Positions 15,599-20,282 are shown, numbered from the stretch's first letter. The stretch is DNA of 64,000 nt from Escherichia coli (GCF_001677475.2 NZ_CP015229.1), one strand, 5' to 3'. Numbers and translations are program-made. The notes: a model not told the origin generated them from the letters alone.

Positions 15599-15674
15599 GG
15601 GTGATTAGCTCAGCTGGGAGAGCACCTCCCTTACAAGGAGGGGGTCGGCGGTTCGATCCCGTCATCACCCACCA
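15599..15674 (+). tRNA. valU: tRNA-Val (UAC)
   Basis: GGGTGATTAGCTCAGCTGGGAGAGCACCTCCCTTACAAGGAGGGGGTCGGCGGTTCGATCCCGTCATCACCCACCA, 76 nt. Confidence 0.95.
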
Positions 15675-15718
15675 ACTACTTTATGTAGTCTCCGCCGTGT
15701 AGCAAGAAATTGAGAAGT

Positions 15719-15794
15719 GGGTGATTAGCTCAGCTGGGAGAGCACCTCCCTTACAAGGAGGGGGTCGGCGGTTCGATCCCGTCATCACCCACCA
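15719..15794 (+). tRNA. valX: tRNA-Val (UAC), second identical copy
   Basis: Identical 76-nt sequence to the first Val tRNA after a 44-nt spacer. Confidence 0.95.
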
Positions 15795-15798
15795 CTTC

Positions 15799-15874
15799 GG
15801 GTCGTTAGCTCAGTTGGTAGAGCAGTTGACTTTTAATCAATTGGTCGCAGGTTCGAATCCTGCACGACCCACCA
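15799..15874 (+). tRNA. lysV: tRNA-Lys (UUU)
   Basis: GGGTCGTTAGCTCAGTTGGTAGAGCAGTTGACTTTTAATCAATTGGTCGCAGGTTCGAATCCTGCACGACCCACCA, 4 nt after the second Val tRNA. Confidence 0.95.
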
Positions 15875-15982: not shown

Positions 15983-16867
15983 CTACTGTGTCAATGCAGC
16001 CAACAGCTTAACCATCGCGGGCGTCACCTGCTGTGTTTCATAAACAATATATAAATCTGCAGGGATGCGCTGTTTGAGCGGACGGAAAATGACACCTGGC
16101 CAGTTCATTTGTGCGTAGCTGTCCGCTATCAATGTGATACCAATGCCCATACTGACCATGGCGAGTACCGTTTGCGGTTCATTAACTTCGCGAATAACAA
16201 CCGGTGAAAATCCCACCTGCTGGCAAACTCGCTGCAAAAAATCCCAGTCAGTGTACACGGGCGGCATTGTAACAAAATACTCGTCACGTAGCGCTTCCAG
16301 CGGGACGGTGGAAAATGATGAGAAATGATGCTCTTCAGGCATCGCCACCAGAAACGCCGATTCATGCAACCGTAAGCTGGTAAAACCTGCAGGTGGTTCT
16401 GTTGCCATTCGCCAGATACCGGCATCGAGTTCACGTCGTTCCAGCAGGGTCATTTGCATCGCGGGCATCTTTTCGCGAAAAAGAACGTCAACGTTAGGAT
16501 TTTCCCTGAGGAATCGCCGCATAACCGGGCGCATCCGTCCCCACATTGCCGTTCCCACTACGCCGAGTTCAATCCGCCCTGCTTCTCCCCGACCTATTTG
16601 TTCAACCCGAGCCAATACATTATTAGCATTCACCAGCAATCGACGCGATTCTTCCATCAAGATTTTGCCCGCGTGTGTCAGTACGACGCTGCGCGAATGG
16701 CGAATAAAAAGCTGCGTGCCGAGTTGATTTTCCAGCTCTTTAATATGAATACTGAGCGGAGGCTGAGACATATTTAAACGCGCTGCTGCGCGACCAAAAT
16801 GCAACTCTTCCGCTACGGCAAGAAAATAACGGAGCAACTTAAGATCTGTTCTGTATACGCGTTCCAT
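15983..16867 (-). CDS. xapR: LysR-family activator of xanthosine catabolism XapR
   Basis: ORF track 299 aa; start chosen at MERVYRTDLKLLRYFLAVAEELHFGRAAARLNMSQPPLS (294 aa), LysR HTH. Confidence 0.9.
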   Translation of the reverse strand: MERVYRTDLKLLRYFLAVAEELHFGRAAARLNMSQPPLSIHIKELENQLGTQLFIRHSRSVVLTHAGKILMEESRRLLVNANNVLARVEQIGRGEAGRIELGVVGTAMWGRMRPVMRRFLRENPNVDVLFREKMPAMQMTLLERRELDAGIWRMATEPPAGFTSLRLHESAFLVAMPEEHHFSSFSTVPLEALRDEYFVTMPPVYTDWDFLQRVCQQVGFSPVVIREVNEPQTVLAMVSMGIGITLIADSYAQMNWPGVIFRPLKQRIPADLYIVYETQQVTPAMVKLLAALTQ

Positions 16868-17087
16868 AATTAAGTGCTCCATATAATAAATACATCGTAT
16901 TAAATTATCATGGCATAAAGTATTTCACCACCAGATATCCGACATACATAAACACAATGGATAATATACCTGGTAATACATTTGGTACAGGAATAGGCAA
17001 GCGCACGATTGTAAACAAAGCACCAATGCCAAAACCAACGCCGGAAGAAAATAAAATATCTTTCACTAATTAACCTTTATCATAAAA

Positions 17088-17110
17088 GCAGCTCTGAAGA
17101 GCAGAGCTGC
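17088..17110 (-). terminator. Terminator hairpin downstream of xapB
   Basis: GCAGCTCTG-AAGA-GCAGAGCTGC inverted repeat followed by a T-run on the minus strand. Confidence 0.6.
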
Positions 17111-17118
17111 GAATCCTT

Positions 17119-18375
17119 TTAATGAGCCACCGCTCGATGCTTTATCTTTTCAGGGTCATGATTATATTTAAACCCAAAGAAAAATATCACTGCGAGAAAA
17201 AGAGCATATCCTGCAAACACCAGCCAGATAGTTTGCCAGTCTTTTACGCCATCCACCGAAAAGTAATCTACTGCCATACCGCTCAGAATCGAGCCAATCC
17301 ATGCGCCGACACCATTTACCATGGTCATAAAGAGCCCCTGCGCGCTGGCACGAATGCTGGAATCAACTTCCTGTTCGACAAATACCGAACCAGAAATATT
17401 GAAGAAATCGAATGCACAGCCATAAACAATCATCGACAGCAGCAGCAAAATAAATCCGGTTGTTGACGGATCGCCATAGGCGAAGAAGCCAAAGCGCAGC
17501 GTCCAGGCCACCATACTCATCAGCATGACGGTTTTAATTCCAAATCGCTTTAAAAAGAATGGGATAGTCAGTATAAAGCCCACTTCTGCCATCTGTGAAA
17601 CCGACAGTAAAATGGAGGGATATTTCACCACAAAACTGTCAGCAAACTCCGGGTTACGGGCGAAATCATGTAGGAACGGATTACCAAAAACGTTGGTAAT
17701 TTGCAGTACCGCACCCAGCATCATGGCAAAGAGGAAAAAGATGGCCATGCGTGGATTTTTAAACAGCACGAAGGCATCCAGACCCAGCTTGCTGGCAAGC
17801 GATGTGGTCGTTTTTTTCTCCGCAACCGGAATCTTCGGCAAAGTCAGCGCATAAGCCGACAGCAGCAATGACGCACCGGACGCGATATACAGCTGCAGAC
17901 TACTCAATTCCAGATGCAGCAGGCTTACTGCCCACATCGCGACAATGAACCCCACCGTACCAAAAACGCGAATGGGCGGGAAAGCGGTCACCGGGTCAAG
18001 CCCTGCCTGGGCAAGACAGGAATAAGAGACGCTGTTCGATAACGCAATAGTCGGCATAAACGCCATCGCATTGACTAACATCACCCAAAACATCATATCC
18101 GGATCAGTTACGGATGCCGCATAAAAAAGTACGCCCGCACACACCAGGTGACATAGCATGTATGCACGTTCTGCGCGCAGCCATTTGTCTGCGATGATCC
18201 CCATTATACCAGGCATAATAATCGCGGCGATCCCTTTGGAACTGTAAACCATGCCAACATTAGCGCCGGTGAAATGAAGGGTATTAATCATGTAAGAACC
18301 GAGGGTAACCAGCCAGCTCCCCCAGATAAAATATTGCAAAAAGGACATTACCTTTAAGCGCAAAGCGATGCTCAT
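17119..18375 (-). CDS. xapB: Xanthosine permease XapB (MFS nucleoside:H+ symporter family)
   Basis: 418 aa, 12-TM-like ORF; MSIALRLKVMSFLQYFIWGSWLVTLGSYM. Confidence 0.95.
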   Translation of the reverse strand: MSIALRLKVMSFLQYFIWGSWLVTLGSYMINTLHFTGANVGMVYSSKGIAAIIMPGIMGIIADKWLRAERAYMLCHLVCAGVLFYAASVTDPDMMFWVMLVNAMAFMPTIALSNSVSYSCLAQAGLDPVTAFPPIRVFGTVGFIVAMWAVSLLHLELSSLQLYIASGASLLLSAYALTLPKIPVAEKKTTTSLASKLGLDAFVLFKNPRMAIFFLFAMMLGAVLQITNVFGNPFLHDFARNPEFADSFVVKYPSILLSVSQMAEVGFILTIPFFLKRFGIKTVMLMSMVAWTLRFGFFAYGDPSTTGFILLLLSMIVYGCAFDFFNISGSVFVEQEVDSSIRASAQGLFMTMVNGVGAWIGSILSGMAVDYFSVDGVKDWQTIWLVFAGYALFLAVIFFFGFKYNHDPEKIKHRAVAH

Positions 18376-18435: not shown

Positions 18436-19269
18436 TCAGGCAATTTTGCGCAGAAAGCCGCAAATAAGATTAATAAAGTTTTGCTTTGAGAGTTCCGCTG
18501 CTGCCAGCGTTTGGGCATGAGAAAGCTTCACGTCACTCAGACCTTCCGCCATGTTGGTAATCGCAGAGACCGCAACGACTTTAAGGTCGCAATGGCGAGC
18601 TGAAATAACCTCAGGCACCACAGACATACCAACAACATCCCCACCAATAATTTGCATCATGCGAATTTCCGCCGCAGTCTCGAAATTCGGCCCCGGATAC
18701 GAGACGAACACGCCCTCCGTCAGAGAGAAACCCTCTTCTTTTGCCACTTTTTGTAACAGTGCGCGGTATTCCGCATCGTAGGCATTTGCCAGTGAGAAGA
18801 AACGCTCGCCAAAACGATCATCGTTAAGACCCACCATCGGCGTACCTGGCATGGCGTTGATATGATCTTTCAATGCGACCAGGCTGCCTGCCCCCACTTC
18901 CGGACGCAGCGAGCCTGCCGCATTGGTGCAGAACAGTAGCTCGCAGCCCAGCAGCTTAAAGGTACGAATTGCGTCAGTCATAATGGTCATTCCACGACCT
19001 TCGTAGAAATGTCCGCGACCTTTCATACATACCACCGGTACGCCCTGGAGATGGCCCAGCACTAACTCCCCCGCATGACCATGTACCGTACTTACCGGGA
19101 AGCCCGGCAGCTTTTCGTAGGAAATTGCGACAGCGTTCTCAATCTGATCGGCCAGCGCGCCCAGCCCGGAACCTAAAATAAAGGCCACTCGTGGCGTGAA
19201 ATCAGGTTTATAAGTCTTGATAATATCTATGCAAAACAGCGGGTTATGAGAAAATTGAACCTGAGGCAT
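18436..19269 (-). CDS. xapA: Xanthosine (purine nucleoside) phosphorylase II
   Basis: 277 aa; PNP-family motifs (GSGLG, hexameric/trimeric PNP fold signature). Confidence 0.95.
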   Translation of the reverse strand: MPQVQFSHNPLFCIDIIKTYKPDFTPRVAFILGSGLGALADQIENAVAISYEKLPGFPVSTVHGHAGELVLGHLQGVPVVCMKGRGHFYEGRGMTIMTDAIRTFKLLGCELLFCTNAAGSLRPEVGAGSLVALKDHINAMPGTPMVGLNDDRFGERFFSLANAYDAEYRALLQKVAKEEGFSLTEGVFVSYPGPNFETAAEIRMMQIIGGDVVGMSVVPEVISARHCDLKVVAVSAITNMAEGLSDVKLSHAQTLAAAELSKQNFINLICGFLRKIA

Positions 19270-19517: not shown

Positions 19518-20282
19518 ATGAAAAAACATCTTTTAACTCTGACACTTTCCTCTATATTAGCGATACCTGTTATATCTCATGCAGAATTTAAAGGCGGTTT
19601 TGCAGATATCGGCGTGCATTATCTGGACTGGACCAGCCGGACTACCGAAAAATCGTCGACCAAATCACACAAAGATGATTTTGGTTATCTTGAAATTGAA
19701 GGTGGCGCTAACTTTAGTTGGGGAGAAATGTACGGGTTCTTCGACTGGGAAAACTTCTATAACGGTCGCCATAATAAACCAGGTAGCGAGCAGCGTTATA
19801 CCTTTAAAAATACCAACCGTATTTACCTGGGTGACACCGGATTTAATCTTTACCTGCACACGTATGGCACCTACGGGTCTGCGAATCGTGTGAATTTCCA
19901 CGACGATATGTTCCTGTACGGTGTCGGCTACAATTTCACCGGCAGCGGTTGGTGGTTCAAACCGTTCTTTGCTAAGCGTTATACAGATCAAACCTATTAC
20001 ACTGGCGACAACGGCTATGTCGCCGGCTGGGTTGCAGGTTACAACTTTATGCTGGGCAGCGAGAAATTCACTCTTACCAACTGGAACGAGTACGAGTTTG
20101 ACCGTGACGCTACCTATGCAGCGGGTAATGGCGGTAAAGAAGGGCTGAATGGCGCAGTTGCACTGTGGTGGAATGCAACATCACACATCACTACGGGGAT
20201 TCAGTATCGATATGCGGATGACAAACTGGGCGAAGATTTTTACCAGGATGCGATAATCTACTCCATCAAATTTAACTTCTGA
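19518..20282 (+). CDS. yfeN: Putative outer-membrane beta-barrel protein YfeN (Tsx-like)
   Basis: 254 aa; signal peptide MKKHLLTLTLSSILAIPVISHA; aromatic-rich strands and C-terminal ...IKFNF typical of OMP barrels. Confidence 0.85.
   Translation: MKKHLLTLTLSSILAIPVISHAEFKGGFADIGVHYLDWTSRTTEKSSTKSHKDDFGYLEIEGGANFSWGEMYGFFDWENFYNGRHNKPGSEQRYTFKNTNRIYLGDTGFNLYLHTYGTYGSANRVNFHDDMFLYGVGYNFTGSGWWFKPFFAKRYTDQTYYTGDNGYVAGWVAGYNFMLGSEKFTLTNWNEYEFDRDATYAAGNGGKEGLNGAVALWWNATSHITTGIQYRYADDKLGEDFYQDAIIYSIKFNF

What the first reader, a model, noticed from the sequence alone, without database searches (positions are those of the whole stretch)
16908..17066. Unannotated small hydrophobic ORF candidate between xapR and xapB
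Downstream of the xapB terminator on the minus strand, a GTG-initiated 52-codon frame encodes a hydrophobic peptide (VKDILFSSGVGFGIGALFTIVRLPIPVPNVLPGILSIVFMYVGYLVVKYFMP) with a possible AAGG RBS. It could be a small membrane protein, but the region is AT-rich and hydrophobic translations arise easily from T-rich sequence, so confidence is low. An alternative 38-codon plus-strand frame (16957-17073) has no RBS.
Basis: seen in the sequence. Interest (0 to 1): 0.3.

Follow-up and report, generated by a model that had tools for sequence, protein, structure and literature searches.

The report
xapX: conserved small membrane protein gene
The 52-codon frame between xapB and xapR is a real, strongly conserved gene for a tiny two-helix membrane protein that databases already call XapX (DUF1427); it is missing only from the E. 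coli K-12 reference annotation, and its function has not been tested.

Summary
The ORF is exactly as described: window 16908-17066, minus strand, GTG start, 52 codons, AAGG 7 nt upstream, just after the xapB hairpin terminator. Its length alone is not significant, because 14% of shuffles of the 251-nt spacer give an ORF this long. Conservation settles the matter. All eight Enterobacterales orthologues, from Escherichia to Pragia and Chimaeribacter, keep xapA-xapB-ORF-xapR, and with the window copy every one is exactly 52 codons with an ATG or GTG start and an SD-like tract. dN/dS is about 0.05-0.15, variable sites fall 20/10/45 by codon position, and the rival frames acquire stops. The peptide scores 64 bits against NCBIfam TIGR03510 "XapX" (cutoff 27.8). 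PGAP annotates it as a "DUF1427 family protein" in thousands of E. coli genomes, but NC_000913.3 does not. AlphaFold predicts a helical hairpin with a Pro-x-Pro-x-Pro loop. The family has at least 1,314 clusters across Bacteria, haloarchaea and some viruses. In gamma-proteobacteria and one haloarchaeon it sits beside nucleoside permeases and catabolic enzymes, but only 1 of 8 blind-sampled loci showed this. It is therefore an already-known predicted gene, real with high confidence. An accessory role in nucleoside uptake is an inference. I found no translation data.

The parts
16908..17066 (-). xapX coding sequence: 52 codons, GTG start, TGA stop. It encodes a XapX/DUF1427-family protein identical to RefSeq WP_000651752.1.
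   Evidence: ORF. TIGR03510 scores 64.2 bits against a cutoff of 27.8. It is annotated as a CDS in RefSeq E. coli genomes. All orthologues are exactly 52 codons, and dN/dS is 0.05-0.15.
17074..17077 (-). Shine-Dalgarno-like AAGG (AAAGG extends to 17078), 7 nt upstream of the GTG.
   Evidence: Read directly from the sequence. A purine-rich SD-like tract (AAGG, AAAGG, AAGGA, AAGGG, AAGGAGG, TGGAG) sits at the same place in all nine orthologues.
17084..17110 (-). Hairpin after xapB (9-bp stem, 5-nt loop at 17088-17110) followed by a short TTTT tract (17084-17087). It is probably a leaky intrinsic terminator or an intercistronic stabiliser.
   Evidence: Terminator scan and RNA fold of -17.6 kcal/mol, z = -2.5. 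A hairpin is present at this position with a different sequence in 7 of 8 orthologous loci, but the T-tract is kept in only some.
17007..17063 (-). Codons 2-20: predicted transmembrane helix 1, carrying the G11-x3-G15 motif.
   Evidence: AF2 model with pLDDT 86.7 and helix at residues 2-20. G11 and G15 are each present in 47 of 49 family members.
16977..17006 (-). Codons 21-30: the conserved loop V-R-L-P-I-P-V-P-N-V. The family motif is (K/R)-L-P-x-P-A-P.
   Evidence: AF2 shows a non-helical segment at residues 21-30. P24, P26 and P28 are present in 47-48 of 49 members.
16917..16976 (-). Codons 31-50: predicted transmembrane helix 2, with G33 and the invariant G43-Y44.
   Evidence: AF2 helix at residues 31-50. 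Mean Kyte-Doolittle hydropathy is 1.69. G43 is invariant in 49 of 49 members.
17119..18375 (-). xapB, the xanthosine/H+ symporter (NHS family of the MFS), immediately upstream of xapX.
   Evidence: Pfam Nuc_H_symport at 628.6 bits and RefSeq annotation.
18436..19269 (-). xapA, xanthosine phosphorylase, the first gene of the operon.
   Evidence: Pfam PNP_UDP_1 and RefSeq annotation.
15983..16867 (-). xapR, the LysR-type activator. Its ATG lies 40 nt downstream of the xapX stop codon.
   Evidence: Pfam HTH_1 and LysR_substrate. The RefSeq CDS is 885 nt.

Best explanation
The frame is a genuine protein-coding gene, best called xapX. It is the fourth gene of the xanthosine-utilisation locus xapA-xapB-xapX-xapR. 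It encodes a 52-residue inner-membrane protein of the XapX/DUF1427 family. Two hydrophobic helices (residues 2-20 and 31-50) form a hairpin joined by a rigid, highly conserved (K/R)-L-P-x-P-x-P loop. A GxxxG motif in helix 1 and a small-residue face in helix 2 suggest helix packing or oligomerisation. Shown here: the ORF, its family membership, its synteny, and purifying selection on the amino-acid sequence. Inferred: (a) The protein inserts in the membrane with its termini in the cytoplasm; the charge bias supporting this is weak. (b) It is transcribed mainly by read-through of the short-U-tract hairpin after xapB, so it would be xanthosine/XapR-inducible at a lower level than xapAB, and it may also lie on the transcript that feeds xapR. 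(c) It acts at the membrane as an accessory to nucleoside uptake or catabolism, most simply by associating with or stabilising the XapB permease. My probabilities are: real gene 0.95, membrane hairpin 0.85, co-expression with the xap operon 0.6, nucleoside-uptake accessory role 0.35.
For: Family: NCBIfam TIGR03510 XapX scores 64.2 bits against a cutoff of 27.8 and covers 47 of 49 profile positions. PGAP annotates the CDS in E. coli genomes.

Synteny: xapA-xapB-X-xapR is kept in eight Enterobacterales loci across several families and in a Salmonella record. XapX identity of 69-100% is comparable to XapB and XapR.

All nine orthologues are exactly 52 codons. Three have ATG at the position of the E. 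coli GTG, and all have SD-like tracts.

Selection: dN/dS is 0.05-0.15 with synonymous sites near saturation. Two close pairs show 10 synonymous vs 0 nonsynonymous and 9 vs 0 changes. Variable columns are 20/10/45 by codon position. Other frames accumulate stops. An E. coli allele with 7 nucleotide differences encodes the identical protein accession, and K-12 differs by 2 synonymous changes.

Structure: the AF2 model has mean pLDDT 86.7 with two helices and a Pro-rich loop. GRAVY is 1.31.

Family breadth: 75 clusters at 50% identity and at least 1,314 at 90%.

Context: the gene lies directly after a nucleoside permease of an unrelated family (CNT NupC) and before deoC(ABD) in Aeromonas and Vibrio. 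It lies before deoD in Salinivibrio and Photobacterium. It overlaps a nucleoside hydrolase gene after an ECF transporter in the archaeon Halomarina.
Against: I found no direct evidence of transcription or translation of xapX. The Ribo-seq supplements I could reach were absent or truncated, and no paper in the library mentions the peptide.

A hairpin with a TTTT tail lies only about 21 nt upstream of the start codon, and no conserved dedicated promoter was found.

A Rho-termination region has been mapped with its best position 14 nt inside the K-12 ORF, in LB where read counts are very low (PMC7815308, Suppl. file 2). This is compatible with poor translation under non-inducing conditions.

The nucleoside context is not family-wide. 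In a blind sample of eight diverse genomes only one had nucleoside genes nearby. Other members sit with isochorismatase/amidase genes, FMN reductase, argS, an RND pump, or in viruses. The partner transporters belong to unrelated families, which argues against a specific transporter-binding subunit.

The E. coli sequence itself does not hit Pfam PF07235.
Confidence: 0.75

Rival explanations
1. XapX is a real small membrane protein, but its job is generic: membrane homeostasis, or a small channel or oligomer unrelated to nucleosides. Under this view its place in the xap locus is a historical accident of gene order.
For: Seven of eight blind-sampled family members have no nucleoside genes nearby. 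Contexts are very heterogeneous: argS in two Bacillota, an RND pump, FMN reductase, amidases, and stand-alone genes. Homologues occur in haloarchaeal and Geobacillus viruses. Tandem paralogue pairs in two MAGs suggest self-contained hetero-oligomers.
Against: Within gamma-proteobacteria there are three different nucleoside arrangements: xapAB-X, nupC-X-deoCABD and X-deoD. An archaeal ECF-nucleoside hydrolase-X operon adds a fourth. That recurrence is hard to ascribe to accident. The xapB-xapX adjacency is also kept from Escherichia to Pragia.
Confidence: 0.3
2. The ORF works mainly in cis as an upstream ORF or leader for xapR. Its translation, not its product, would control Rho-dependent polarity or mRNA structure and so set XapR levels.
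For: The ORF ends 40 nt before the xapR ATG. A Rho-termination region peaks at K-12 2,522,662, 14 nt into the ORF (PMC7815308). No convincing separate xapR promoter lies downstream of the ORF: the only sigma-70-like match would start transcription within the xapR SD, and it is not conserved in Pseudocitrobacter.
Against: Selection acts on the amino-acid sequence (dN/dS 0.05-0.15). The same protein family occurs where no regulator follows, such as the Vibrio nupC-X-deoC arrangement and stand-alone genes. In Pragia about 0.9 kb separates the ORF from xapR. A cis role could exist in addition to a protein role, but it cannot be the main reason for conservation.
Confidence: 0.07
3. It is a chance ORF in AT-rich intergenic DNA. 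The hydrophobic translation would come from T-rich sequence, and there would be no gene.
For: An ORF of at least 52 codons arises in 14% of shuffles of the spacer. The spacer is 35% GC. The curated K-12 record does not annotate the ORF, and I found no expression data.
Against: Length, frame and start position are conserved exactly in nine orthologues with saturated synonymous divergence. The curated HMM hit is far above cutoff. There are more than 1,300 homologous clusters across phyla.
Confidence: 0.02
4. It is a holin-like or toxin-like small membrane-damaging peptide, or alternatively the plus-strand 38-codon frame (16957-17073) is the real gene.
For: Three of 49 family members hit Pfam Phage_holin_3_3 weakly, and one of 49 hits a PHROG holin family. 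Homologues occur in some viruses. The plus-strand frame is open in the window and in K-12.
Against: The E. coli protein hits no holin or PHROG family. The locus has no endolysin, antitoxin or antisense-RNA context and is metabolic. The plus-strand frame has no family hit and acquires 1-4 stops in six of the eight orthologues.
Confidence: 0.02

Closest known systems
NCBIfam TIGR03510 'XapX domain' / Pfam PF07235 DUF1427
   Same: This ORF is the family's namesake. It is about 50 aa, hydrophobic and located between xapB and xapR. It scores 64.2 bits against a cutoff of 27.8. RefSeq protein WP_000651752.1 is this exact sequence.
   Different: Nothing differs structurally. The family has no assigned function, and GO annotations in RefSeq records give only 'biological_process'. 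The Pfam model does not detect the E. coli member directly, although it matches 32 of 49 relatives.
Small membrane proteins that modulate transporters in E. coli (AcrZ-AcrB, KdpF-KdpABC, MgtS-MgtA, SgrT-PtsG, CydX-CydAB); this comparison is from general knowledge
   Same: XapX is tiny and hydrophobic, is encoded next to or within the operon of a membrane transporter, and was overlooked by classical annotation. This is the working analogy for how XapX might act on XapB.
   Different: Most of those proteins are single-helix and lineage-restricted. XapX is a two-helix hairpin with a conserved Pro-x-Pro-x-Pro loop, and it is distributed across Bacteria, Archaea and viruses next to unrelated transporter families. 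No sequence relationship was detected, and no physical interaction has been tested.
Small oligomeric or dual-topology membrane proteins encoded as singletons or tandem pairs (SMR/EmrE, Fluc); this comparison is from general knowledge
   Same: The charge bias is weak, GxxxG-type packing motifs are present, and some genomes carry tandem paralogue pairs or longer 'XapX domain' proteins.
   Different: XapX has only two helices per chain, not four. No homology was found, and no transport activity is known. The resemblance is a lead only.

Membership tests
NCBIfam TIGR03510 (XapX domain) | HMM score at or above the curated cutoff over most of the 49-position model | tested here: met
   64.2 bits against a cutoff of 27.8, E = 5.8e-18, residues 4-50 matching model positions 2-48.
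NCBIfam TIGR03510 (XapX domain) | A small hydrophobic protein of about 50 aa encoded between xapB and xapR | tested here: met
   The protein is 52 aa with GRAVY 1.31. Its flanks are XapB (Nuc_H_symport) and XapR (LysR). The same order holds in eight other Enterobacterales loci.
Pfam PF07235 (DUF1427) | Direct match of the sequence to the Pfam HMM at the gathering threshold | tested here: not met
   The E. coli sequence gives no Pfam hit even at E <= 1.
Pfam PF07235 (DUF1427) | Homology to proteins that do match PF07235 (transitive membership) | tested here: met
   A profile seeded with the E. coli protein recovers relatives, 32 of 49 of which hit PF07235. Many hits of the family profile carry precomputed PF07235 labels. 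RefSeq names the E. coli protein 'DUF1427 family protein'.
Protein-coding gene (general) | Purifying selection on the encoded amino-acid sequence, with the frame preserved in relatives | tested here: met
   dN/dS is 0.05-0.15, variable sites are 20/10/45 by codon position, there are no indels or stops in nine orthologues, and the rival frames are broken.
Protein-coding gene (general) | Direct evidence of translation (ribosome footprints, tagged product, peptides) | not testable with these tools
   The Weaver et al. supplement is not held. The Stringer et al. supplement is truncated at about 250 kb of the genome. No paper mentions the peptide.
Transporter-accessory small proteins (AcrZ/KdpF/SgrT-like, a functional class) | Physical association with the neighbouring transporter and an effect on its activity | not testable with these tools
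   Only gene adjacency is available: XapB, NupC, MFS_2, an RND pump and an ECF transporter lie upstream in different lineages.
Phage holins | A match to a holin family and a lysis-cassette context | tested here: not met
   The E. coli protein has no Pfam or PHROG hit. Only 3 of 49 and 1 of 49 relatives give weak holin hits. The E. coli context is a metabolic operon.

The most novel reading that the evidence does not exclude
The XapX family could be an unrecognised membrane component of nucleoside-scavenging modules. It would be recruited independently next to unrelated nucleoside permeases (NHS-MFS XapB, CNT NupC, an archaeal ECF system) and next to cleavage enzymes (XapA, DeoD, the Deo operon, IU-nucleoside hydrolase). 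In that case it would act on something these systems share rather than on one transporter. Examples are handling the released nucleobase at the membrane, or coupling uptake to cleavage. In E. coli its translation might additionally set XapR levels through Rho polarity.
Probability: 0.2. Interest if true: 0.55.

Novelty: already known. Interest (0 to 1): 0.25.

Why it matters
The xap system is a textbook-level and modelling example of an inducible transporter switch, yet it is described as three genes (xapA, xapB, xapR). A fourth, strongly conserved membrane-protein gene sits inside it and is absent from the K-12 MG1655 reference annotation that most functional-genomics pipelines use. At 52 aa it falls just above the 50-aa limit of small-protein screens and below classical ORF cut-offs.

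Adding it to the reference would allow it to be quantified in Ribo-seq, proteomics and Tn-seq reanalyses. If it modulates XapB or XapR, quantitative models of the xanthosine switch would need revising.

The DUF1427 family is large and cross-domain and has no known function. The E. coli copy, in a simple inducible operon, is the most tractable entry point for studying it.

Tried and rejected
1. Ribo-seq evidence. The Weaver et al. preprint has no supplement held. The Stringer et al. supplement is cut at about 250 kb of genome coordinate, so the absence of a hit means nothing. The main texts do not mention xap.

2. The original xap operon paper (Seeger et al. 1995, PMC177358) is not held, so published transcript mapping could not be consulted.

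3. A dedicated promoter. The best sigma-70-like site lies inside the xapB 3' end (17190-17161). It is not conserved even in Escherichia sp. MOD1, where TATAAT becomes TACAAC. The site overlapping the xapX stop would start transcription within the xapR SD and is not conserved in Pseudocitrobacter.

4. A sigma-54 promoter, suggested by a published gSELEX peak (PMC8743547). There is no consensus match with two or fewer mismatches in the spacer, and window-wide matches are at chance level.

5. The holin or toxin idea. It rests on weak hits in 3 of 49 and 1 of 49 relatives, with none for the E. coli protein, so I dropped it.

6. Structural neighbours. Foldseek against the PDB gave zero matches. The sequence profile against the PDB gave only insignificant single-helix hits.

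7. The broad family alignment A4 was too divergent for locus retrieval, so I used the closer alignment A3.

8. A family-wide nucleoside association. An initial sample taken from plasmid hits looked striking, but a blind sample gave 1 of 8. The claim is therefore restricted to gamma-proteobacteria plus one haloarchaeon.

9. ORF length as evidence. I rejected this because 14% of shuffles match it.

Full report
OBSERVATION. A complete minus-strand ORF runs from 17066 to 16908 with a GTG start, 52 sense codons and a TGA stop. It translates to (M)KDILFSSGVGFGIGALFTIVRLPIPVPNVLPGILSIVFMYVGYLVVKYFMP. An in-frame TAA lies two codons upstream of the GTG, so there is no longer version. AAGG sits at 17074-17077, 7 nt from the start.

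The flanking genes on the same strand are xapB (17119-18375; Pfam Nuc_H_symport, 629 bits) and xapR (15983-16867; LysR), with xapA further upstream (18436-19269). A 9-bp GC-rich hairpin with a TTTT tail lies at 17110-17084, just after the xapB stop (-17.6 kcal/mol, z = -2.5). The alternative 38-codon plus-strand frame at 16957-17073 is also present.

IS IT MORE THAN CHANCE? Not by length. The xapR-xapB spacer is 251 nt and 35% GC, and 711 of 5000 dinucleotide-preserving shuffles contain a complete ORF of at least 52 codons.

COMPARATIVE EVIDENCE. A pattern scan of one genome per species returned eight Enterobacterales loci: Escherichia sp. MOD1, Pseudocitrobacter, Entomohabitans, Phytobacter, two Chimaeribacter, Citrobacter and Pragia. 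In all of them tblastn finds XapA, XapB, the small ORF and XapR in the same order and orientation.
- The small protein is 69-100% identical to the window's. XapB is 77-98% identical and XapR 63-95%.
- In every locus the ORF is exactly 52 codons. The start is GTG or ATG at the same position (ATG in Entomohabitans, Phytobacter and Pragia), and a purine-rich SD-like tract precedes it.
- Nei-Gojobori estimates give dN/dS of 0.05-0.15 wherever dS is not saturated.
- The window against Escherichia sp. MOD1 shows 10 synonymous and 0 nonsynonymous differences. The two Chimaeribacter species show 9 and 0.
- Variable alignment columns are 20, 10 and 45 (of 51 each) for codon positions 1, 2 and 3.
- The rival plus-strand frame gains 1-4 stops in six of the eight orthologues, and the other frames are also broken.

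Within E. coli, 4,077 of 5,426 complete genomes carry the ORF. In an even sample down the ranking, 39 of 40 annotate a full-length CDS. An allele with seven nucleotide differences encodes the identical protein accession WP_000651752.1. K-12 MG1655 differs from the window by two synonymous third-position changes. The only disruption seen was an IS1-associated deletion of xapA, xapB and most of the ORF in one strain.

WHAT IS KNOWN. The peptide matches NCBIfam TIGR03510 'XapX' at 64.2 bits (cutoff 27.8, E = 6e-18). PGAP-annotated RefSeq genomes call the CDS a 'DUF1427 family protein', including PGAP-annotated MG1655 derivatives. The curated reference record NC_000913.3 does not list it. 'Unannotated' is therefore true only of that record.

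Pfam PF07235 (DUF1427) does not detect the E. coli sequence directly, but it matches 32 of 49 relatives recovered from it. In the searchable literature I found one comparative paper noting DUF1427 as a domain of unknown function in plant-associated proteobacteria (PMC554113) and one incidental listing of a XapX-domain protein (PMC13268207). I found no functional study and no mention of the peptide.

THE PROTEIN. An exhaustive HMMER search finds 75 representative clusters at 50% identity. A word-indexed profile search finds at least 1,314 clusters at 90% identity. These come from Vibrionales, Aeromonadales, Alteromonadales, Rhizobiales, many Bacillota, Verrucomicrobiota and others. Further members occur on haloarchaeal plasmids, in Haloarcula tailed viruses and in Geobacillus virus E3.

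Members are mostly 50-65 aa, and some are 80-100 aa with a C-terminal extension. Conserved features are as follows:
- G11-x3-G15, each present in 47 of 49 members, and F18.
- A basic residue at position 22, followed by L-P-x-P-A-P, with each proline present in 47-48 of 49 members.
- G33, a small-residue face in helix 2, and an invariant G43 followed by Y44.

AlphaFold2 with the family alignment gives a confident helical hairpin: mean pLDDT 86.7, helices at 2-20 and 31-50, and a non-helical proline loop at 21-30. GRAVY is 1.31. K+R residues are more frequent in the termini than in the loop in 40 of 49 members, which weakly predicts both termini in the cytoplasm. For the E. coli protein the bias is only 2 against 1. 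No solved structure resembles it by fold or by sequence profile.

GENOMIC CONTEXT AND FUNCTION. Hits from the annotated plasmid and chromid collection and from unannotated loci showed a recurring nucleoside theme beyond the xap locus.
- Salinivibrio and Photobacterium have XapX immediately upstream of deoD.
- Aeromonas and Vibrio have tatD-nupC(CNT permease)-XapX-deoC-deoA-deoB-deoD.
- The archaeon Halomarina has ECF transporter S/T/A components, then an IU-nucleoside hydrolase, then DUF1427 overlapping it by 4 nt.
- A metagenomic copy overlaps a PRTase-like gene.
- A Natrinema copy lies next to an amidohydrolase annotated as 5'-deoxyadenosine deaminase.

A second recurring context is isochorismatase-family hydrolase plus amidase or amidohydrolase, in Rhizobium, Sinorhizobium and a Syntrophorhabdaceae MAG.

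To guard against cherry-picking, I then chose eight members by taxon and contig length alone. Only the Vibrio locus was nucleoside-linked. Two Bacillota share DUF1934-argS-XapX, Endozoicomonas has the gene after an RND pump, and four are stand-alone.

I conclude that the nucleoside association is real for gamma-proteobacteria. There it appears in three different arrangements involving two unrelated permease families, and an archaeal operon echoes it. It is not a property of the whole family.

The simplest mechanistic reading for E. coli is a membrane accessory of xanthosine uptake, associated with or stabilising XapB. I put this at about 0.35. A generic membrane role is about as likely, at 0.3.

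The window's own locus looks like a complete nucleoside island. Divergent from xapA is yfeN, which is a Tsx-family nucleoside channel by Pfam (151 bits).

EXPRESSION (INFERRED). Only about 21 nt separate the hairpin's short U-tract from the GTG, and no conserved promoter was found. The best sigma-70-like site lies inside xapB and is not conserved in the closest relative.

A hairpin at this position is present in seven of eight orthologous loci with quite different sequences. The T-tract is kept only in Escherichia, Pseudocitrobacter and Phytobacter, and Entomohabitans has no hairpin. This fits a leaky terminator or stabiliser that lowers expression of distal genes relative to xapAB, not a full stop. 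On that reading, xapX would be transcribed by read-through from the xanthosine-induced xapA promoter.

The published statement that xapR is constitutive and not autoregulated (quoted in PMC7205307) implies an additional promoter upstream of xapR. I could not place it.

Adams et al. (PMC7815308, Suppl. file 2) list an 'orphan' Rho-termination region whose best position is 2,522,662 on the minus strand, 14 nt inside the K-12 ORF. Reads upstream/downstream were 42/28 untreated and 77/161 with bicyclomycin, giving a Rho score of 3.1. The very low counts show the locus is almost silent in LB. That also explains why standard Ribo-seq conditions would miss xapX. The Rho signal is compatible with weak translation when uninduced, and it motivates the minor rival that the ORF also acts in cis on xapR.

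VERDICT. The reading as a small membrane protein is supported by strong comparative evidence. The 'unannotated' label applies only to the K-12 reference record. The gene and its family are already in curated databases, so this is not new in kind. Its function remains open. The practical outcomes are a curation gap in NC_000913.3 and a tractable entry point to a large cross-domain DUF.

Noticed in passing
window 15599-15874: ARAGORN finds two tRNA-Val(UAC) genes and one tRNA-Lys(UUU) here, whereas K-12 and strain 600468 have three tRNA-Val plus Lys (valU-valX-valY-lysV). The lysV-to-xapR gap is also shorter in the window, about 108 nt against 265 nt. The stretch annotated 'RtT sRNA' in strain 600468 therefore seems to be missing or shortened.
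   Followed up: partly
window 16868-17118 (K-12 xapR/xapB spacer): A published RpoN genomic-SELEX study lists a binding peak in the xapR/xapB spacer (PMC8743547). A scan for the sigma-54 consensus TGGCAC-N5-TTGCW with up to 2 mismatches finds nothing in the spacer, and matches across the whole window are at chance level.
   Followed up: yes
window ~17052 (K-12 2,522,662, minus strand): Adams et al. 2021 (PMC7815308, Suppl. file 2) report an 'orphan' Rho-termination region whose best position falls 14 nt inside xapX (Rho score 3.1, very low read counts in LB). It is called orphan only because xapX is absent from the K-12 annotation.
   Followed up: partly
window 19518-20282 (+): yfeN, divergent from xapA, is a Tsx-family nucleoside-specific outer-membrane channel by Pfam (151 bits). 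The region therefore holds an outer-membrane channel, a phosphorylase, an inner-membrane permease, XapX and a LysR activator. A second LysR gene (yfeR) follows.
   Followed up: partly
E. coli genomes; L028 (NZ_CP065613.1): The xap locus is accessory in E. coli: only about 75% of 5,426 complete genomes carry xapX. In strain FDAARGOS_944 an IS1 element replaces xapA, xapB and the first two thirds of xapX, leaving xapR.
   Followed up: partly
L011 3688-4138; L012 13-462: Two MAGs (Syntrophorhabdaceae and Candidimonas) carry two tandem, diverged XapX-like genes of a 'YVYxGKTE' subfamily. One copy has a basic residue in the loop and the other does not. This may point to hetero-oligomers or opposite topologies.
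   Followed up: no
H34-H38 (HCTV-1, HCTV-16, Geobacillus virus E3); L016: XapX/DUF1427 homologues are encoded by haloarchaeal tailed viruses, by a Geobacillus phage, and in a phage-like metagenomic block with RecA and MazG. They are annotated there as hypothetical proteins or not annotated at all.
   Followed up: no
L031 2121-4189; L035 2303-4162: In two distant Bacillota (Salibacterium and Desulfotomaculum) the XapX-like gene directly follows DUF1934-argS, a conserved arrangement unrelated to nucleoside catabolism. In Desulfotomaculum pyrG follows it.
   Followed up: no
window 17084-17110 and orthologous positions in L003-L010: The hairpin between xapB and xapX is kept as a structure with almost no sequence similarity between genera (for example GCAGCTCTG..CAGAGCTGC, GCTGGCG..CGCCAGC, GGCCGGCCGG..CCGGCCGGCC). 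The U-tract comes and goes, which suggests selection for the stem itself rather than for termination.
   Followed up: partly
window 16868-16882: The mechanical ORF for xapR extends five codons upstream (MEHLI-MERVYR, start at 16882) of the RefSeq start at 16867. A GGAG sits before the annotated ATG, which favours the annotated start.
   Followed up: no
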